Assembly: GCA_029093185.1 (NCBI GenBank)
Contig: GCA_029093185.1_4348.1
Reading direction: 5' to 3' (one strand)
Origin: a phage
DNA length: 43,655 nucleotides
Shown here: in pieces, positions 26,224-32,832 of the stretch
Layout: each line of letters opens with the position of its first letter
Position numbering within the stretch: position 1 is the stretch's first letter
Translations under genes and position numbers: made by a program
The notes under the pieces: model-generated
What the model saw: only the letters and a program-made list of their open reading frames with translations
The model's database searches: none
What the model was told of the DNA's origin: nothing

Positions 26224-26636
26224 TGGGCTACTTTGAGGACTTAACAAAAGCGTTCGATGTTCCGCTGGTAGCCTTCGGAACCGCCAACGGCATCAAGGTT
26301 GCGCTTGAAAACATCGACGCGCCGACGTCAACCGATACGCCGTATCTGGCGAGTTACATGCTACTGGCAGATACCGAGCAGGCGGATTTGTTCTTCACTG
26401 AGCAACGCTCTGGTATTTATCAGGTAGACATTAACTACGCATCGGTGAAAGGTAGCGCGCCAATCAATAAAATGGCAGACTTACTTAACACGGCGTTTAA
26501 AGCAGGTAAGTCATTTTCGCGTAACGACATCTGCGCCGAGGTTCAATCGGTTAGCCTGGGGCCGCTGATTGTAGAAAACGGATGGGCCAAACGGCCATTG
26601 TCAATTAACTTTATAGCATTCACCAAGAGGCTGTGA
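26223..26636 (+). CDS. Putative tail terminator/completion protein
   Basis: 137 aa immediately upstream of the major tail protein. Confidence 0.4.
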   Translation: MGYFEDLTKAFDVPLVAFGTANGIKVALENIDAPTSTDTPYLASYMLLADTEQADLFFTEQRSGIYQVDINYASVKGSAPINKMADLLNTAFKAGKSFSRNDICAEVQSVSLGPLIVENGWAKRPLSINFIAFTKRL

Positions 26637-27805
26637 ATATGGCTACAACTCCTTTTAAGGGCGCGAATACCGCGCAATTCTATGTGGCGGAAGTGACCCC
26701 GGGTGTAACACCGACTAACCCGGTCTGGTCACCATTACGTAACACGGGCGGTGTTCCTGCCATTACCCGTGACACACTGACCTCCAACGAACTCGACGGC
26801 AGCCGTGAAACTACATCCATCCGCACCGGTAACAAACAGGTTAGCGGTGAATACGCAATTGAGCTTAGCTCTAAAAGCCAGGATGACTGGTTGGCAGGTG
26901 CTTTAGGCTCTACGTGGCAATCCGGTGTTTCTCTGCCAGGACTATCGATCACCGTCGCGCCCGCGGGCAAGACGTTCACACGCGCTACCGGCAGTTTTAT
27001 CACTGACGGAGTTGGGGTAGGCGACCTGATTGCGTTTACCGACTTAACAGGCGATAACGCAAAACCATTTATTGTTACCGCAGTAACGGCTACCGTTGTT
27101 ACTGGTGCAGGCATCCAACACACCCTGACCACCGAGACAAAAACTAGTAAGGCTAAAACTGGCGACACGCTGGAAACCGGTAACACATGTAAGACGTTCT
27201 CTATTCTCACCTGGTACAAAGGACAGTGCGGCGGGACTGACGCATACACACTAACCAAAGGTGTGGAAGTTTCCGGTTTCACCGTTGAGCAGGCCGTTAA
27301 CGCGATGGTTACAGGTAGCTTCCCGTTCATCGGGCGCAGCCAGGAGATTCTTACTACGCCGCCGTCTGGTTCCAACTTCTCCTCTGTCACGTTTGGTGAT
27401 GAGCCATTCTCCTCGGTTGACGTTTCTGTGTTTGACGGCTATACGCCGTTGCGTTGCGACAGCCTGACCATCACCAACGACAACAGCGCATCCGCGCAGT
27501 TCGAACTCGGCAACACTAACGTAGCGTTTGTAGAACGTAGCCGCGCGGCTAACACCTTCTCCATCTCCGGCAAGCTGTATGACATGGCGATGATTCAGAA
27601 GTTTATCAACGAGCAGCAGGTAGAGATTAACTCTATTCTGGCGGGGGTAAACGGGGCTATGTCTTTCAGTTTGAAACGTGCGGAGCTTACGGCAGTTACC
27701 CCAGAGATTGGCGGACCTGAGTCAATCACTCAGTCCATTGAAGGCCAGGCTACTGGCAACCAGTACCAGTCGTCTATTGTTATTCAGCGTATCACCTACG
27801 CATAA
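26633..27805 (+). CDS. Major tail protein
   Basis: 390 aa, Thr/Gly/Ser-rich, followed by a terminator. Confidence 0.6.
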   Translation: MNMATTPFKGANTAQFYVAEVTPGVTPTNPVWSPLRNTGGVPAITRDTLTSNELDGSRETTSIRTGNKQVSGEYAIELSSKSQDDWLAGALGSTWQSGVSLPGLSITVAPAGKTFTRATGSFITDGVGVGDLIAFTDLTGDNAKPFIVTAVTATVVTGAGIQHTLTTETKTSKAKTGDTLETGNTCKTFSILTWYKGQCGGTDAYTLTKGVEVSGFTVEQAVNAMVTGSFPFIGRSQEILTTPPSGSNFSSVTFGDEPFSSVDVSVFDGYTPLRCDSLTITNDNSASAQFELGNTNVAFVERSRAANTFSISGKLYDMAMIQKFINEQQVEINSILAGVNGAMSFSLKRAELTAVTPEIGGPESITQSIEGQATGNQYQSSIVIQRITYA

Positions 27806-27809
27806 AACT

Positions 27810-27835
27810 AAGGCCCCGAAAGGGGCCTTTTTTAT
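27810..27835. terminator. Bidirectional rho-independent terminator
   Basis: AAGGCCCC-GAAA-GGGGCCTT followed by TTTTTTATT; also terminates the convergent antisense operon. Confidence 0.65.
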
Positions 27836-28065
27836 TACTCATCAATGTTACTCCTGTACTCCCGTAACTTTTCCAGACTTTCAATTGCTTCCGCTAAGTC
27901 GGTTCCGGTGTCCTTGTGTCCACGTAAACCCATGCACAATAGCTTCTTCAATGCGTGCTGTAACGCCGGGTCGCGGATGTCGAAAGCGCGGAGCACATCA
28001 TAAACGTCTACTGTCATAGTGCTGCCGTGAGTATTTGTCATTGTGCGGTTGTATTTTGAAGTCAT
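27835..28065 (-). CDS. Hypothetical small protein (third gene of the antisense moron operon)
   Basis: 76 aa; ATGA overlap with the phosphoesterase gene. Confidence 0.55.
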   Translation of the reverse strand: MTSKYNRTMTNTHGSTMTVDVYDVLRAFDIRDPALQHALKKLLCMGLRGHKDTGTDLAEAIESLEKLREYRSNIDE

Positions 28066-29192
28066 CCCAGCATCTCCGGTGAAATAGTTAAACGTGCGAC
28101 CTCGCCATATTCGGCGCTATAAGTAATTACATTTGCACTGCGGCCTGACATCCACCCGCCGCGGGAGGCATAGGCGTCTTTAGCCGCTAAGGTGCGGTGT
28201 TGCTCAACAATCATGTTACGGCTTTCTACAATCTTCTGGTGGTGCAGGTGGCCTACGTGGGCGTAGCTATAGACACTCTCACCGAACGCTTTGCGGAATT
28301 TGGCAATCATAACCGGTTCGATAGCATCGAATCGCGCCTTATGCCCGTGGTGAAAGAACAACGTCGTTTTTCCGTGTTGCACCATCTTGTAAACATCCGG
28401 CGACGTATCGACAATCACTCGGCTGTCGTTCGAATATAAAACTGTGAACATTTCAGCCAGCCATACAGAGCCTACAGGGTCATGGTTCCCCTGTACGATA
28501 AGCAAGCGAACATTTTTATGTTTAACCAGTGCCATATCTACAACACAGCGTACCATACGAATCATGTAGCGGACGAGTTTCTGGTAGCGAGTGTCTGCGT
28601 CCAACACGTGACGCGACTCAGGTGTAACGGCATCCAGACTATCGAAGTGCGCGAAATCACCCAGCAGGTTAATAACTCCTGTTCCTGCATCCGGTGCTTT
28701 CTGAAACGCCGCGTCGAACCAACGAGAGAACAGGTCTTCCGCAATCTTTATATCCCAGTCGTCGCCGCTCTCGTCGGCCCAGGCAAGCATACCGAGATGG
28801 AAATCAGATACCGTGTAAAGATTGAGTAGCTTGTCGTCGCGTTTGGCTCGAGTCGCTTTAGCCGGCGCAACTGGCGTAATCTCTGACTTCATGCCTTCAA
28901 TCACGGCTTTCATCAACTCGACCTGACGTTCAGCGTCGGTGTCTGTCTTAACCCATTGCAACTTAGTATTGCCGAACTCGTCTACCAGAGACGACGTTCC
29001 TTTAATCTTGTAGCCGTCTGGCACAAGGTGGCTAACGTCACGCCCGTGGCCTACACCTTTCTTAGCCAGCTTCGCTTTACGGATACGAATAACTCGGTCT
29101 GAGATGCCGTATTTACGGGCGATGTCTACATTCTTCATCCCGGCGTTCAATTCTTCCTGTAACTGTTCGTCGGTTATTTTCTTCTGGGCCAT
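28062..29192 (-). CDS. HTH-fused calcineurin-like metallophosphoesterase
   Basis: 376 aa; N-terminal HTH (VDIARKYGISDRVIRIRKAKL); phosphoesterase motifs VSDFHLG (DxH), LGDFAHFD (GDxxD), VQGNHDP (GNHD), HHGH and GHLHH. Confidence 0.7.
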   Translation of the reverse strand: MAQKKITDEQLQEELNAGMKNVDIARKYGISDRVIRIRKAKLAKKGVGHGRDVSHLVPDGYKIKGTSSLVDEFGNTKLQWVKTDTDAERQVELMKAVIEGMKSEITPVAPAKATRAKRDDKLLNLYTVSDFHLGMLAWADESGDDWDIKIAEDLFSRWFDAAFQKAPDAGTGVINLLGDFAHFDSLDAVTPESRHVLDADTRYQKLVRYMIRMVRCVVDMALVKHKNVRLLIVQGNHDPVGSVWLAEMFTVLYSNDSRVIVDTSPDVYKMVQHGKTTLFFHHGHKARFDAIEPVMIAKFRKAFGESVYSYAHVGHLHHQKIVESRNMIVEQHRTLAAKDAYASRGGWMSGRSANVITYSAEYGEVARLTISPEMLG

Positions 29193-29257
29193 GCTTACTT
29201 CCTCGTGTTTAGGATTTGTCCTATTTAACCACAGTGGATTCCTTTAAATAAAGGCAA

Positions 29258-29584
29258 CTATTTACTTTCTGCGCCTATCGCCCACCCTGTCATTACCATT
29301 TGCAGACGGGTGGCTGTCAGTAGGCTATAGAAAGCATCTCCGTTTTTCTCTACCGAACGTATCACTGTGTAGGTTACGGCCTGCGGGGGTAGGCCCGATT
29401 TACCAACCTCCACGGCGGCCTCACACTCGCGAACTGTAGAGTCCTTGAACGCCTTTACAATAGTAGGGTCGGCTTTCCCGAGCACACCAGAAGTCATAAG
29501 AACAGATTCACTAAATACCTGTTCGCACGGGGCTCCAAAAGTAGCAAAAGACATAAACCCCAGAGCTAATACTAATTTACGCAT
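29258..29584 (-). CDS. Small secreted protein with cleavable signal peptide
   Basis: 108 aa; MRKLVLALGFMSFATFGAP signal-like N-terminus; two Cys in the mature part; no lipobox. Confidence 0.55.
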   Translation of the reverse strand: MRKLVLALGFMSFATFGAPCEQVFSESVLMTSGVLGKADPTIVKAFKDSTVRECEAAVEVGKSGLPPQAVTYTVIRSVEKNGDAFYSLLTATRLQMVMTGWAIGAESK

Positions 29585-29641: not shown

Positions 29642-29748
29642 GTAGTGTGTTAGAATAAGTTTGCGCCTAGTGTCGCACACGAAAAGCGGGTGGTTCCCGT
29701 CTGGCGCATTAACCATAACCAGTAACCTCTTAACCAAAGGACTAAAGA

Positions 29749-30165
29749 ATGAAACTTTCTGATTTTTATTTTGCCGACCGCCACGCTGCCGGTACTAAAA
29801 TGCCTATCCTTCTGCCGAGTGGTAAAGATTCCGGTGAATGGCTACAGGTCATCGGCCCTGATTGCGACGCGGGTGTTCGTGCAGGCCGCGCCTACACAAC
29901 GGCAATTCGACGCCTTACGGAAGAACTTGCGCCCTTAGATAAAGAGTGTGAGGCACTGAATAACTGGGCGCGCTATAACGATGAGAAGGGCTGGCGGGTG
30001 ATGGACCTGAACAAGCAGCTTGCCGTGGAAATTGTCACCGGTTGGTCATTCGACGAACCATTCAGCAAAGAGGCGCTGGCTAACCTGTTCGACCAGTACA
30101 GTGGACTGGCTGAGGCGGTAGTTAAGCACCACACCGACAGCCGCGAGAAACTATCGGAAAAGTAA
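29749..30165 (+). CDS. Tail assembly chaperone (G-like)
   Basis: 138 aa immediately upstream of the tape measure gene; a -1 frame stays open past its stop. Confidence 0.55.
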   Translation: MKLSDFYFADRHAAGTKMPILLPSGKDSGEWLQVIGPDCDAGVRAGRAYTTAIRRLTEELAPLDKECEALNNWARYNDEKGWRVMDLNKQLAVEIVTGWSFDEPFSKEALANLFDQYSGLAEAVVKHHTDSREKLSEK

Positions 30166-30527
30166 AAGCGCTGTATGAATTTGCGCAATGGTGTTTTGTT
30201 GACCGCCACAAACGTAAGCAATTCGACGACATCGCGGCAGGGCACCAGGCGGCTTTGATTGCAATGGGCGTGATTAAAGAACCGCAGATGAAAGAAACGA
30301 CGGGGCCTGAATGCCCCGTTTCTCTTATCGACGTGTTCGAGAAATACCGTGCCATTAAATTCCTACAGCGCGAAACAGATGATACTATCGTTATAATCCC
30401 GCGCGATGCGCTCAAATGGCAAGATTTGGTAGCGTTTCGTGATGTCGCCGGTTACGGCATAAGTTTGTTCGAAGCCGAGGTTATCATGGGCTTAGACGGA
30501 ATATTTGAGGGCAGAGAAGATGGCTGA
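30126..30527 (+). CDS. Tail assembly chaperone frameshift extension (GT-like; -1 frame, no independent start required)
   Basis: Frame open from 30126 to 30527 and overlapping the last 40 nt of the G-like ORF; GAAAAG (30157-30162) is a candidate slippery site. Confidence 0.4.
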   Translation, partial: APHRQPRETIGKVKALYEFAQWCFVDRHKRKQFDDIAAGHQAALIAMGVIKEPQMKETTGPECPVSLIDVFEKYRAIKFLQRETDDTIVIIPRDALKWQDLVAFRDVAGYGISLFEAEVIMGLDGIFEGREDG

Positions 30528-32832
30528 TACGGCTTCCCTAATTGCCAGAGTAAAAACAGAAGGCGCTGATGTAGCCGCTAAACAGCTTGACGCTATGGCG
30601 GCATCCGCAGACCGTGCGGACACATCCGTAAACAAACTAACGCCGGATGTTAATAAAGTAAACTCCGCTACGTCTAAAGCGGCTTCTGACGGTTTCGCTA
30701 AGTTCCGTAACGCCGCAGGGCAGGTGGGCTTCCAGGTACAGGACATGGTTGTCCAGTTGCAGTCCGGTACGTCTGCATTCGTGGCAATTGGTCAACAAGG
30801 TTCGCAGCTTGCGGGTGCTTTCGGCCCTGGTGGTGCGGTGCTTGGAGCTGTAATTGCTCTTGCGTCCGCAATCGGCGGTGTCCTGTATAAATCGCTAACC
30901 GAAGCAGAAGGCAGTTCAAAAGACCTCGAAGCCGCGCAGAAGCAGTTAAAAGATACTTTCCAGCAAACGGCATCCGGTTCTCTTGAACTGACAGACGGCC
31001 TTATTCAGCTTACCCAAATCAGCAGAGAAGCAGCAGAGACTCAGCTTGCTCTGGCTAAGGCTAACGCGGACCTTATCGCTCAGCAAACAGCTAAAGCCGT
31101 TCGGGAGGACGCAGAATCGTGGGAAACGTGGAAAGCCTCCACGGCATCGGCGATTAGCCAGTACGATGCGCTGGTATCTAAGGGCGCGGATGTAGGCGAC
31201 ACGTTAGAAAAACTCGGTGGCACTTACGAGGGTAACATCGTAGGCGTCAACATGCTGGCGCAGAATATCGCGGAGCTTAGCAGTAAGTTCGGAGTTAACC
31301 GTGACCAGGCGCTGGAGATGATAGCGGCGCAGAGTGCGTTTAACAAAGAACCAACCGCCGAGAATGCCCGCCGCATCGCCGATGTGTTTACCGACTGGCT
31401 CGGTAACACAAAACAGTTGAATCCGGAACTTATCCGCCTGACTGACAATGCCAATAAGAACGCCACGGCACTAGAGAACGCAGAGAAGTCGGCAAACGCG
31501 GCGGCAGAGGCTCAAAAGAATCTTGGCCGTAACGTCAACTCAACCACGCAGAGATTCCAGGAACAGAACGAAGCTATCGTCAAGAATCAGCAAATTGCCA
31601 TCTTAAGCGACCGTGAGCGCATCCGGGCGCAAGCTGAGATGGATAAACAAGCGTTCGCTAAACGTGAAGCTGTCACCAAAGAACAGATCGCCGCGTATAA
31701 CGCCGCCCGCGACACAGAAGCACAGCAAGACATCGCTCGCATCGACGCGACCGAAAAAGCTAAGGCTGACCGCGAGGCTAAATCGAACGAGAAACGTCTG
31801 GCGGCGCAGGCCAAACGTGAAGAAACGGCGGCTGAACGACAGAAAAAAGCGGCGGAAGATTTCCTGGCTACTGTCGACCGCACAACCGGAGATGAGATTT
31901 CGCGCATTACCGCTGCGGAAGAACAGAAACTGGCGAAACTGGAGGAGTTCAACCGCGCCGGAACGATAAGCCAGCAGCAGTATGAAAACGCCAAAACTCA
32001 AATTATGCTCACAGCCGAGCAGGCCAGACAGGAAGAACTGGATAAGAAAAGAAAAGAGCAGCAGGAAAAGCAGCAGAAAGGCGAGGACTTCATGGCGCAG
32101 ATTATGGGTCAGAACGCTACTGAGCTTGAGCTTCTCGACATCCAGGAACAGCAGAAACTGGAGGTAGCGGATAAGTACCGTGAGCAGGGGCTTATTAGTG
32201 AGAAGCAGTACCAGGCGGCGCTTAACGCCATCAATGAGCAGTATGCTACGAAGCGTGCCGACGCAACGGCAACCGCCTTCGGTAACATGGCTTCAAACAT
32301 CGGTTCGGCTTTGGGCGAGGCTTCTGGCGCGTATAAGGCATTCGCTATCGTACAGGCCACTATCGCCACGTACACCGCGGCTATCGAGGCGTACAAGTCC
32401 ACAGCGGCTATCCCTGTAGTTGGTCCGTTCCTGGCTCCTGTAGCTGCCGCCGCTGCCGTTGGGGCGGGTATGGCGCAGATTTCCGCTATCAGGTCCGCAC
32501 GTGAACAGGGCGGACAGTTATCAGCCGGGCAGGCTTCCACCATCGCTGAACGTGGTAAACCAGAAGTTATCATGCCCGCTGGTGCGTCACGTGTACGCAC
32601 CGCACAGCAGATGAAAGAAATTATGGGGCAAAACGGGTCTTCTTCCGGCCCATCTAATGTTACCATTGTAAATAATACATCGAGTCAGATTGGCAACGTA
32701 TCCACCGAGCAGGATGATGAAGGCCGTCTGCGTATCATCATAGAAGAGCAAGTTGCTGCATCTTTGCAGAACAGCAACAGTAAGATTAGCAAGGCCCGCA
32801 AGGCCACAAGAAACGCGCCGGGGTTTAAATAA
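30505..32832 (+). CDS. Tail tape measure protein
   Basis: 775 aa, long Ala/Gln/Glu/Lys-rich helical sequence after the chaperone pair. Confidence 0.8.
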   Translation: MRAEKMADTASLIARVKTEGADVAAKQLDAMAASADRADTSVNKLTPDVNKVNSATSKAASDGFAKFRNAAGQVGFQVQDMVVQLQSGTSAFVAIGQQGSQLAGAFGPGGAVLGAVIALASAIGGVLYKSLTEAEGSSKDLEAAQKQLKDTFQQTASGSLELTDGLIQLTQISREAAETQLALAKANADLIAQQTAKAVREDAESWETWKASTASAISQYDALVSKGADVGDTLEKLGGTYEGNIVGVNMLAQNIAELSSKFGVNRDQALEMIAAQSAFNKEPTAENARRIADVFTDWLGNTKQLNPELIRLTDNANKNATALENAEKSANAAAEAQKNLGRNVNSTTQRFQEQNEAIVKNQQIAILSDRERIRAQAEMDKQAFAKREAVTKEQIAAYNAARDTEAQQDIARIDATEKAKADREAKSNEKRLAAQAKREETAAERQKKAAEDFLATVDRTTGDEISRITAAEEQKLAKLEEFNRAGTISQQQYENAKTQIMLTAEQARQEELDKKRKEQQEKQQKGEDFMAQIMGQNATELELLDIQEQQKLEVADKYREQGLISEKQYQAALNAINEQYATKRADATATAFGNMASNIGSALGEASGAYKAFAIVQATIATYTAAIEAYKSTAAIPVVGPFLAPVAAAAAVGAGMAQISAIRSAREQGGQLSAGQASTIAERGKPEVIMPAGASRVRTAQQMKEIMGQNGSSSGPSNVTIVNNTSSQIGNVSTEQDDEGRLRIIIEEQVAASLQNSNSKISKARKATRNAPGFK

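What the first reader, a model, noticed from the sequence alone, without database searches (positions are those of the whole stretch)
30126..30527. Candidate programmed -1 frameshift in the tail assembly chaperone
The -1 frame relative to the chaperone ORF (29749..30165) is open from 30126 through 30527 and overlaps the last 40 nt of that ORF. GAAAAG at 30157-30162, just before the stop, could allow the Lys-tRNA to slip back one base. This is the conserved G/GT arrangement upstream of tape measure genes, but the site is not a canonical XXXYYYZ heptamer.
Basis: partly seen in the sequence, partly recalled or inferred. Interest (0 to 1): 0.4.

Follow-up and report, generated by a model that had tools for sequence, protein, structure and literature searches.

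The report
Tail chaperone -1 frameshift, non-canonical signal
This is the usual phage trick of making a longer tail-assembly chaperone by a -1 ribosome slip just before the tape-measure gene; it is already annotated in near-identical phages, but here it uses a minimal A-AAG slip site at the stop codon and probably a long-range RNA helix.

Summary
G (29749..30165, 138 aa) ends GAA-AAG-TAA, and the -1 frame is open over 30126..30527, ending inside the tape-measure start.

The window is a Kagunavirus-like coliphage, 95-97% identical to K1H and Bas70-76. The 259-aa fused product is already in the databases: K1H YP_009168853.1 equals my predicted junction ...LSEK|VKALYEF, and PHROG 15027 has 259 positions. 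The frameshift itself is therefore known, although GenBank annotation is inconsistent and the Shashou genome paper reports "no canonical slippery sequence".

Comparison of about 85 unique relatives shows:
- A_AAG followed by TAR is invariant, while the bases before it vary.
- One lineage leaves only 7 nt of overlap, which pins the slip to AAG.
- Codon periodicity switches frame exactly at the stop.
- Several relatives have no -1-frame start codon for 149-323 nt.

A new point is that synonymous sites are frozen only at the slip site and in GCGCUG, 5 nt downstream. That hexamer begins a covarying long-range helix (window 30168-30183 with 30356-30371). Other lineages pair the same 5' arm with a closer partner, and no sequence has both.

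Best reading: tRNA-Lys slips -1 on A_AAG, helped by this helix and possibly the stop codon. No experiment has tested this. Interest is modest.

The parts
29749..30165 (+). Gene G: tail assembly chaperone, 138 aa, the product of standard (0-frame) translation
   Evidence: ORF. Pfam PF08748 Phage_TAC_4, 35.9 bits against a cut-off of 21.1. PHROG 15027 positions 1-138.
30156..30162 (+). Slip site G_GAA_AAG. The conserved core is A_AAG at 30159-30162, where tRNA-Lys re-pairs from AAG to AAA.
   Evidence: A_AAG is invariant in 85 unique relatives, while the preceding bases vary: GGAAAAG 62, CGCAAAG 9, AGCAAAG 5, GGTAAAG 4, AAAAAAG 2, and GGGAAAG, GGCAAAG, GTCAAAG 1 each. The penultimate codon always ends in A whatever amino acid it encodes. 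In L038 and L040 the -1 frame overlaps G by only 7 nt.
30163..30165 (+). 0-frame stop TAA immediately 3' of the slip codon. Its TA also forms the first -1-frame codon, GUA.
   Evidence: The stop is adjacent in 85 of 86 contexts (TAG 58, TAA 27, never TGA). The one exception, L021, has A_AAG_UUA_UAG.
30162..30527 (+). T extension in the -1 frame: 121 codons plus TGA. The full GT coding sequence is join(29749..30162, 30162..30527), giving 259 aa.
   Evidence: Pfam PF23812 Phage_TAC_18, 64.3 bits. PHROG 15027 positions 136-259. The fusion length equals that of the K1H and Shemara annotated products. Codon periodicity switches frame at the stop.
30168..30183 (+). 5' arm of the predicted long-range stimulatory helix (GCGCUGUA-U-GAAUUUG). 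It starts 5 nt after the AAG slip codon.
   Evidence: GCG and CTG are two of the only four invariant-residue codons with no synonymous variation. Synonymous conservation peaks at codons 137-143. Pair counts, RNAalifold and MFE folds support the pairing.
30356..30371 (+). 3' arm of the long-range helix (UAAAUUC-C-UACAGCGC), lying within T codons K-F-L-Q-R
   Evidence: In the window the helix is 8 bp, a U.C mismatch, then 7 bp. Across 42 relatives, 87.6% of cells are paired, against 22-50% when the partner is slid. Four pairs show compensatory changes, and 0 of 500 shuffles reach the covariation score. There is a second peak of synonymous conservation at codons 204-209. It is the only consensus structure RNAalifold finds.
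30520..32832 (+). Tape measure protein gene. Its ATG overlaps the T stop (ATGGCTGA).
   Evidence: ORF. PHROG 1538 'tail length tape measure protein', E = 2.6e-198.

Best explanation
Most ribosomes translating G terminate at TAA (30163) and release the 138-aa chaperone. A minority slip back one base at A_AAG (30159-30162). E. coli has a single tRNA-Lys (anticodon mnm5s2UUU), and it re-pairs from AAG to AAA. The next codon read is then GUA, and translation continues in the -1 frame to TGA at 30525-30527. The product is a 259-aa G-T fusion with junction ...LSEK-VKALYEF... By analogy with lambda gpG/gpGT, this fusion would link the tape measure protein to the tail tube subunit during tail assembly.

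The slip site is a tetranucleotide / NNA_AAG type, not a canonical heptamer. In the window the P-site tRNA-Glu could partly re-pair from GAA to GGA, but that option is not conserved in the family.

Two flanking features probably raise the frequency of slipping. The first is a long-range RNA helix whose 5' arm (30168-30183) starts 5 nt after the slip codon and pairs with 30356-30371, closing a domain of about 170 nt. This places a duplex at the ribosome's mRNA entrance when AAG is being decoded. The second is the adjacent 0-frame stop codon, which may hold the ribosome with tRNA-Lys in the P site.

Shown by sequence and comparison: the two-frame coding arrangement, the position of the shift, and the conservation and covariation of the helix. 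Inferred: that the slip occurs in vivo, how often it occurs, and that the helix or the stop stimulates it. The confidence of 0.8 applies to the -1 frameshift at A_AAG producing the fusion; the stimulatory role of the helix I put at about 0.55-0.6.
For: 1. Protein family. G and T each match tail-assembly-chaperone Pfam families above threshold. One 259-position PHROG covers G (positions 1-138) and T (136-259).

2. Prior annotation. RefSeq K1H (95% nucleotide identity) and Salmonella phage Shemara annotate a joined CDS of 779 nt. My predicted K1H fusion is letter-for-letter ADA82316.1 / YP_009168853.1, and the Shemara fusion is QEA10354.1.

3. Translation of the -1 frame from the stop onward. 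The most variable codon position changes from G-frame position 3 to G-frame position 2 (that is, -1-frame position 3) exactly at the stop. The stretch VKALYxFAxW upstream of any start codon is conserved at 57% overall protein identity. L003, L032, L033, L037, L042 and L043 have no ATG/GTG/TTG in the -1 frame until +149 to +323.

4. Position of the slip. A_AAG is invariant in 85 unique contexts while the three preceding bases vary. The penultimate codon is GAA, GCA, GUA, AAA, GGA or UCA, always ending in A. L038 and L040 allow only a 7-nt shift window.

5. Cis element. Of 45 invariant, degenerate amino-acid columns, only K138 AAG, V139 GTA, A141 GCG and L142 CTG have zero synonymous variation.

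6. Helix.
- Distal pairing: 87.6% of cells paired against 22-50% when slid, four pairs with compensatory changes, and a covariation score of 0.122 against 0.087 in shuffles (0 of 500 reach it).
- RNAalifold returns this helix as the only consensus structure.
- It appears in both the MFE and the centroid fold of window 30157-30380, z = -3.8.
- Synonymous conservation peaks at both arms.
- In Jerseyvirus- and Shashou-like lineages the same 5' arm pairs instead with +124..+135. Five pairs there show compensatory changes; one example is column 21/144 with CG in 19 sequences, UA in 12 and none unpaired.
- Of 80 unique sequences, 43 have only the distal partner, 31 only the proximal, 6 a weak proximal, and none both.
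- In L021 the stop is displaced by one codon, yet the 5-nt spacer from AAG to GCGCUG is kept.

7. Precedent from the literature.
- A_AAG is the most shift-prone tetramer in E. coli. It gives 5.6% frameshifting with a structure placed 5 nt downstream, and about background level without one (Sharma 2014, PMC4066793).
- NNA_AAG sites are used by IS1222 and occur in B. subtilis cdd (Atkins 2016, PMC5009743).
Against: - No experiment on any member of this phage group was found. The fusion exists only as annotation.
- The window's own helix is not exceptional as a single sequence. About 11.6% of 20-mers in this genome find an equally stable partner within 390 nt, and the shuffle p is about 0.012. 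Support for the helix is therefore comparative.
- Both arms lie in conserved protein motifs, and the sequences are phylogenetically related, so the shuffle controls overstate significance. The measure 'pairs with a change on both sides' is not significant: 28 of 500 shuffles reach it for the distal helix and 301 of 500 for the proximal one.
- Six relatives have only 6-7 bp of pairing.
- No known frameshift element in Rfam matches.
- No conserved local hairpin and no conserved upstream Shine-Dalgarno-like element is present.
- Whether the slip happens with tRNA-Lys in the A site or the P site cannot be decided from sequence.
Confidence: 0.8

Rival explanations
1. T is a separate protein made by its own initiation. 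It would start either at TTG 30255 or ATG 30264, or by termination-reinitiation at the conserved CTG 30171 (TTG in Shashou-like phages) just after the G stop. This is how Bas70-76, Eta and Shashou are annotated.
For: GenBank records annotate a separate CDS starting 8 nt after the stop. An ATG at +101 is present in many relatives. A weak AGG lies 6 nt upstream of TTG 30255. The CTG/TTG at +8 is conserved.
Against: - -1-frame codon periodicity and protein conservation start at the stop, not at +92 or +101.
- Six relatives lack any canonical start for 149-323 nt.
- CTG is a very poor bacterial start codon, and lineages ending GCA-AAG have no Shine-Dalgarno-like sequence upstream of it.
- Reinitiation does not explain why the base before AAG is always A across six different penultimate codons, nor why Lys is always AAG.
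- In the lambda model (Atkins 2016) T must be fused to G in order to bridge the tape measure and the tube protein.
Confidence: 0.06
2. The frameshift is real, but the adjacent stop codon is what drives it. This would be a 'shifty stop': tRNA-Lys slips in the P site while the A site waits for a release factor. On this view the long-range helix serves some other purpose, such as stabilising the rarely translated T region, blocking Rho, or tuning transcription into the tape-measure gene.
For: The stop is adjacent to A_AAG in 85 of 86 contexts. The fourth base is A or C in 84 of 85; by general knowledge, these are weak termination contexts in E. coli. Shifty-stop frameshifting is an established concept (Weiss 1987, as cited in Atkins 2016). 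A terminator-like hairpin sits inside the helix-enclosed domain.
Against: - In L021 the stop moved one codon downstream, while the 5-nt spacer between AAG and the helix was preserved.
- The spacer of 5 nt is the same as the 5-nt spacer before the pseudoknot in the IS3-derived constructs of Sharma 2014.
- The 5' arm always has exactly one partner even though the partner's position differs between lineages. This points to selection on a duplex starting at that position.
- The TA of the stop is also needed to encode GUA in the -1 frame, so adjacency of the stop is partly a coding by-product.
Confidence: 0.2
3. The fusion arises from transcriptional slippage by RNA polymerase on the A run, not from ribosomal slippage.
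For: The window has a run of four A (30158-30161), and loss of one A in the mRNA would give the same fusion protein.
Against: The run is only 3 to 4 A in nearly all relatives (GCAAAG, GGTAAAG). By general knowledge, this is far below the roughly 7-9 residues needed for appreciable slippage by E. coli RNA polymerase. The invariant G after the run and the conserved downstream helix with a 5-nt spacer are hallmarks of ribosomal frameshifting.
Confidence: 0.02

Closest known systems
Lambda gpG/gpGT and the conserved tail-assembly-chaperone frameshift of dsDNA tailed phages (Levin 1993; Xu, Hendrix & Duda 2004, as cited in PMC5009743)
   Same: Two overlapping ORFs lie immediately upstream of the tape measure gene. 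The second ORF is in the -1 frame, has no conserved start of its own, and is expressed as a C-terminal extension of the first. Both halves belong to tail-assembly-chaperone protein families.
   Different: Lambda uses the canonical heptamer G_GGA_AAG, a few codons before the G stop. Here only A_AAG is conserved, it is the last sense codon, and a long-range helix follows. The tail tube gene is also not adjacent: a minus-strand module (27835-29584) lies in between.
Escherichia phage K1H ORF19A/ORF19B (YP_009168854.1 / YP_009168853.1) and Salmonella phage Shemara gp024/gp025
   Same: This is the same locus in the same phage subfamily (Guernseyvirinae). K1H is 95% identical in DNA across the queried stretch (window 29700-30600), with an identical slip site and an identical junction. 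The window's fusion differs from the K1H protein by one residue.
   Different: None of substance. Those records annotate the join but do not describe the signal.
Tetranucleotide / hexanucleotide -1 sites A_AAG and NNA_AAG: IS1222 (G_CGA_AAG), B. subtilis cdd (A_CGA_AAG), and the synthetic E. coli series of Sharma 2014
   Same: A single tRNA-Lys re-pairs from AAG to AAA without conserved P-site re-pairing. A downstream structure is needed for percent-level efficiency, and the spacer is 5 nt, as in the IS3-derived constructs.
   Different: Here the site is the terminal codon of a phage structural-assembly gene. The stimulator is a helix closing a domain of about 110-180 nt, rather than a compact hairpin or pseudoknot.
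E. coli dnaX (A_AAA_AAG with an upstream Shine-Dalgarno-like sequence and a downstream stem-loop)
   Same: -1 slippage on AAG by E. coli tRNA-Lys, with a downstream RNA structure and the 0-frame stop shortly after.
   Different: There is no heptamer in the window and no conserved upstream Shine-Dalgarno-like element. The structure is long-range, not local. A distant relative, L071, does use A_AAA_AAG followed by 5 nt and a local 7-bp hairpin.
Long-distance frameshift stimulators of plant RNA viruses (for example barley yellow dwarf virus; from general knowledge, not checked here)
   Same: Sequence adjacent to the slip site pairs with a distant downstream segment.
   Different: Those act over kilobases, in eukaryotic translation, and with canonical heptamers. 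Here the distance is 110-190 nt, in a bacterial polycistronic mRNA.

Membership tests
Phage tail assembly chaperone G/GT programmed -1 frameshift | Two overlapping ORFs directly upstream of the tape measure gene, the second in the -1 frame relative to the first | tested here: met
   G is 29749..30165. The -1 frame is open over 30126..30527. The tape measure ATG is at 30520.
Phage tail assembly chaperone G/GT programmed -1 frameshift | Both parts are homologous to known tail assembly chaperone proteins or fusion products | tested here: met
   PF08748 (35.9 bits against 21.1) and PF23812 (64.3 bits against 27). PHROG 15027 spans both parts. The exact K1H and Shemara fusion proteins are in the databases.
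Phage tail assembly chaperone G/GT programmed -1 frameshift | The downstream ORF lacks a conserved start of its own and is under coding constraint from the overlap onward | tested here: met
   The periodicity switch falls at the stop. There is no start codon for 149-323 nt in six relatives. The pre-start peptide is conserved.
Phage tail assembly chaperone G/GT programmed -1 frameshift | Canonical X_XXY_YYZ slippery heptamer in the overlap | tested here: not met
   The window has G_GAA_AAG. Only 3 of 85 unique relatives have a true heptamer: AAAAAAG in two and GGGAAAG in one. This feature is typical of the family rather than obligatory, since non-canonical motifs are common among annotated tail-chaperone frameshifts (PRFect paper).
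Phage tail assembly chaperone G/GT programmed -1 frameshift | The fusion protein is produced in vivo at a low fixed ratio and is required for tail assembly | not testable with these tools
   No experimental report for Guernseyvirinae was found.
Z_ZZN tetranucleotide / NNA_AAG -1 frameshift sites (IS1222, cdd, Sharma 2014) | [quoted passage not shown] | tested here: met
   A_AAG at 30159-30162 is in frame and invariant in 85 contexts.
Z_ZZN tetranucleotide / NNA_AAG -1 frameshift sites (IS1222, cdd, Sharma 2014) | A downstream RNA structure about 5-8 nt from the motif acting as stimulator | tested here: inconclusive
   A covarying helix starts 5 nt downstream. Its stimulatory activity has not been tested.
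dnaX-type cassette | A_AAA_AAG heptamer, an upstream Shine-Dalgarno-like element and a local downstream stem-loop | tested here: not met
   The window has no heptamer. No conserved upstream element or local hairpin was found. Rfam gave no hit.

The most novel reading that the evidence does not exclude
Guernseyvirinae phages drive their G-T frameshift with a minimal A_AAG site at the terminal codon, plus a long-range RNA helix that begins 5 nt downstream. The 3' partner of that helix has moved during evolution: it lies about 190 nt away in Kagunavirus and Cornellvirus lineages and about 120 nt away in Jerseyvirus- and Shashou-like lineages, and no sequence has both. This would be a previously undescribed, evolutionarily mobile long-distance frameshift stimulator in a bacterial virus. 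It may be feasible because the T region is almost free of ribosomes. It may also be coupled to the terminator-like hairpin enclosed by the helix, and so help set the relative amounts of G, GT and tape measure protein.
Probability: 0.55. Interest if true: 0.5.

Novelty: new member of a known kind. Interest (0 to 1): 0.3.

Why it matters
In practical terms, the window should be annotated with join(29749..30162,30162..30527). It should not carry a separate 'hypothetical protein' starting at CTG, TTG or ATG. Hundreds of Guernseyvirinae records, many of them therapeutic or phage-typing Salmonella and E. coli phages, are annotated inconsistently, and at least one paper states that no slippery sequence exists.

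Mechanistically, the family is a natural, well-sampled example of frameshifting on a bare A_AAG tetranucleotide. It carries a covarying long-range helix, so compensatory-mutation tests are easy to design. The result would show how much a stop codon and how much a distant pairing each contribute to recoding in bacteria.

Tried and rejected
- Local stimulatory hairpin or pseudoknot. Single-sequence folds of +3..+60, +3..+100 and +3..+160 gave inconsistent partners, and RNAalifold on +3..+95 gave essentially no structure. Rejected in favour of the long-range pairing.
- Conserved upstream Shine-Dalgarno-like stimulator. Nothing upstream of position -7 is conserved at the nucleotide level.
- Known RNA families. 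Rfam at E <= 10 gave only chance-level hits.
- Significance of the helix from the window alone. It is not exceptional, so I do not claim it from a single sequence.
- The GGGGCC...GCCCC hairpin at 30299-30320 as a universal element. It is absent from several lineages.
- Literature evidence for this phage group. Searches found only the Shashou genome announcement. The Jerseyvirinae paper (PMID 25663216) is not held in the library.
- Tandem (two-tRNA) slippage as the shared mechanism. It is rejected because the P-site codons GCA, GUA and UCA cannot re-pair in the -1 frame.
- Not run, because Pfam, PHROG and the exact-sequence look-ups already answered the question: protein structure prediction, and the large homology searches (search for homologous proteins, the search of protein representatives).

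Full report
**What is in the sequence.** The ORF 29749..30165 encodes a 138-aa protein ending ...TCG GAA AAG TAA. The -1 frame has a stop at 30123-30125 and is then open from 30126 to the TGA at 30525-30527. Its first ATG/GTG/TTG is TTG at 30255, followed by ATG at 30264. The next gene, the tape measure protein (PHROG 1538, E = 2.6e-198), starts at ATG 30520 and overlaps the end of the -1 ORF. Every coordinate in the finding is correct. From base composition, an open -1 frame of this length has a probability of about 0.002.

**What the region is.** The window is a Kagunavirus-like siphophage of the subfamily Guernseyvirinae. The stretch 29700-30600 is 95-97% identical to E. coli phages Bas70-76, BUCT789 and K1H, and 484 phage records match it overall. 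G matches Pfam Phage_TAC_4, and the -1 ORF matches Phage_TAC_18; both scores are above the curated cut-offs. PHROG 15027, a 'tail assembly chaperone' profile of 259 positions, matches G at positions 1-138 and the -1 ORF at 136-259. Fused proteins of exactly the predicted length therefore already seed a database family.

**Prior annotation.**
- RefSeq K1H annotates ORF19A (138 aa) and a two-piece joined ORF19B of 779 nt. Salmonella phage Shemara annotates a 'tail assembly chaperone frameshift product'.
- I built the fusion by reading G through AAG and then re-reading its last base (GUA...). An exact-sequence look-up shows that this K1H fusion is ADA82316.1 / YP_009168853.1, and that the Shemara fusion is QEA10354.1.
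- The window's own fusion differs from the K1H protein by one residue.
- Other records are annotated differently. Bas76 and Eta call a separate CDS starting at the CTG eight bases after the stop. [quoted passage not shown]

**Is the -1 frame translated as an extension?** I collected 68 and then 78 related loci from IMG/VR, plus several GenBank records. Apart from a few relatives with 134-144 aa, G is 138 aa and the extension is 120-122 codons. Three results bear on the question.
- The codon position with the highest variability changes from G-frame position 3 to G-frame position 2, which is -1-frame position 3. The change happens exactly at the stop codon, about 90 nt before any start codon in the window.
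- The peptide VKALYxFAxW..., encoded just after the stop, is conserved between the window and Shemara at 57% overall identity.
- Six relatives have no ATG/GTG/TTG in the -1 frame for 149-323 nt after the stop.

Together these results argue strongly against independent initiation at 30255 or 30264.

**Where the shift occurs.**
- In 85 unique sequence contexts the four bases A_AAG before the stop are invariant, while the three before them vary: GGAAAAG 62, CGCAAAG 9, AGCAAAG 5, GGTAAAG 4, AAAAAAG 2, and GGGAAAG, GGCAAAG and GTCAAAG once each.
- The penultimate codon encodes Glu, Ala, Val, Lys, Gly or Ser, but always ends in A. Lys is always AAG.
- In L038 and L040 a -1-frame TAA lies only 7 nt upstream of the G stop, so the shift must occur on GCA-AAG.
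- Only tRNA-Lys can re-pair (AAG to AAA). P-site tRNAs on GCA, GUA or UCA cannot. The shared mechanism is therefore a single-tRNA slip on a tetranucleotide or NNA_AAG site.
- In the window the P-site tRNA-Glu could also partly re-pair (GAA to GGA, with a G.U pair in the middle).
- This class of site is established. A_AAG is the most shift-prone tetramer in E. coli, and NNA_AAG sites are used by IS1222 and occur in B. subtilis cdd. E. coli has a single tRNA-Lys that pairs poorly with AAG (PMC5009743; PMC4066793).
- In the Sharma study A_AAG alone was barely above background (about 0.15%) but reached 5.6% with a pseudoknot placed 5 nt downstream. A stimulator is therefore to be expected here.

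**Cis elements.**
- Among 45 alignment columns with an invariant, degenerate amino acid, only four show no synonymous variation: K138 (AAG), V139 (GTA), A141 (GCG) and L142 (CTG). All the others have 0.56-2.36 bits of codon entropy. The conserved signal is A_AAG-UAR-NN-GCGCUG.
- Short-range folding gave no consistent hairpin.
- The segment from +5 onward is complementary to +193..+208, counting from the first base of the stop. In the window this is 30168-30183 with 30356-30371, forming 8 bp, a U.C mismatch, then 7 bp. In other lineages it is 10-16 contiguous pairs.

**Support for the distal helix.**
- On an ungapped alignment of 42 sequences, 87.6% of cells are paired, against 22-50% when the partner is slid by 1-3 columns. 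Four pairs carry compensatory double changes, in at least four lineages (L013/14, L023/26, L039, L067). Several pairs use G.U, which is compatible only with the sense strand. The covariation score exceeds all 500 shuffles.
- RNAalifold, given no hint, returns this helix as the only consensus structure of the 238-column alignment.
- It is present in both the MFE and the centroid fold of window 30157-30380 (z = -3.8), and in L039.
- Pairwise synonymous identity has two peaks, at codons 137-143 and at codons 204-209, against a background of 0.55.

**The proximal helix in other lineages.**
- In the Jerseyvirus-like and Shashou-like lineages the distal complementarity is absent. The same 5' arm instead pairs with +124..+135.
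- There, 80.9% of cells are paired and five pairs have compensatory changes. Examples are column 21/144 (CG 19, UA 12, none unpaired) and column 24/141 (UG 18, UA 7, CG 6). The covariation score is 0.255 against 0.143 in shuffles (0 of 500 reach it).
- Of 80 unique sequences, 43 have only the distal partner, 31 only the proximal, 6 a weak proximal (6-7 bp), and none both.

**Two informative outliers.**
- In L021 the stop is displaced by one codon (A_AAG_UUA_UAG), but the 5-nt spacer to GCGCUG and the distal helix are retained.
- A distant relative, L071 (27% identity), uses a canonical A_AAA_AAG followed, after 5 nt, by a local 7-bp hairpin.

**Caveats.**
- The helix in the window alone is not statistically remarkable. 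About 11.6% of 20-mers in the genome find an equally good partner within 390 nt.
- Both arms lie in conserved protein motifs, and the sequences are related by descent, so the shuffle controls are generous. The count of pairs with double changes is not significant on its own.
- No experiment on this phage group was found, and Rfam has no matching family.
- Whether tRNA-Lys slips in the A site (classical geometry, helix at the mRNA entrance) or in the P site opposite the stop codon ('shifty stop') cannot be decided from sequence. The stop is adjacent in 85 of 86 contexts, is never TGA, and is followed by A or C in 84 of 85. However, its TA is also needed to encode GUA in the -1 frame.

**Verdict.** The frameshift is an ordinary member of the conserved tail-assembly-chaperone G/GT class and is already annotated in sister phages, so its novelty is low. 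What this analysis adds is:
- the exact shift site and junction, with the coding sequence join(29749..30162,30162..30527);
- the recognition that the site belongs to the known A_AAG / NNA_AAG class rather than the heptamer class;
- comparative evidence for a long-range helix, with a partner that differs between lineages, as the likely stimulator.

The helix claim is a testable hypothesis, not a demonstrated fact.

Noticed in passing
window 30299-30320 (+ strand), inside the T ORF and inside the domain closed by the long-range helix: An intrinsic-terminator-like hairpin, GACGGGGC-CTGAAT-GCCCCGTT, followed by a T-rich TCTCTTAT. It is present in many relatives but not all. In the Jerseyvirus-like clade it is a 9-bp GC-rich stem followed by UUUUUAUAU. 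It could attenuate transcription into the tape-measure gene or stabilise the G mRNA. Neither was tested.
   Followed up: partly
related loci L051-L069 and L075-L095 compared with the window clade; alignments A2 and A5: The 3' partner of the conserved 5' arm differs between lineages, at about +193..+208 or about +124..+135. Of 80 unique sequences none has both partners.
   Followed up: yes
GenBank records PQ850632 (Bas76), KC460990 (Eta), MK931440 (Shashou), NC_027994 (K1H), MN070121 (Shemara): The same locus is annotated in three incompatible ways. K1H and Shemara have a joined frameshift CDS. Bas76 and Eta have a separate CDS starting at CTG, 8 nt after the stop. Shashou has a separate CDS starting at the corresponding TTG, with a published statement that no slippery sequence exists.
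   Followed up: yes
window 27835-29584, minus strand: A minus-strand module lies between the tail tube gene (26633-27805, Pfam Phage_tube_2) and the chaperone gene. It holds a metallophosphatase-like 'DNA repair exonuclease' (28062-29192, PHROG 704) and two small ORFs (27835-28065 and 29258-29584, the latter with a hydrophobic N-terminus). The tube gene and G are therefore not adjacent, as they are in lambda.
   Followed up: no
locus L071 (IMGVR_UViG_3300000976_000042), around the G stop: A distant homologue (27% identity) has a canonical A_AAA_AAG heptamer eight codons before its stop. After 5 nt it is followed by a local 7-bp hairpin (GAACUCU...AGAGUUC). This shows a different signal at the homologous position.
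   Followed up: partly
window 30163-30166 and the same position in 85 relatives: The G stop codon is TAG (58) or TAA (27), and never TGA, even though TGA would still give a Val codon (GUG) in the -1 frame. The base after the stop is A (71), C (13) or T (1). This may be a constraint on termination context. It remains unexplained.
   Followed up: no
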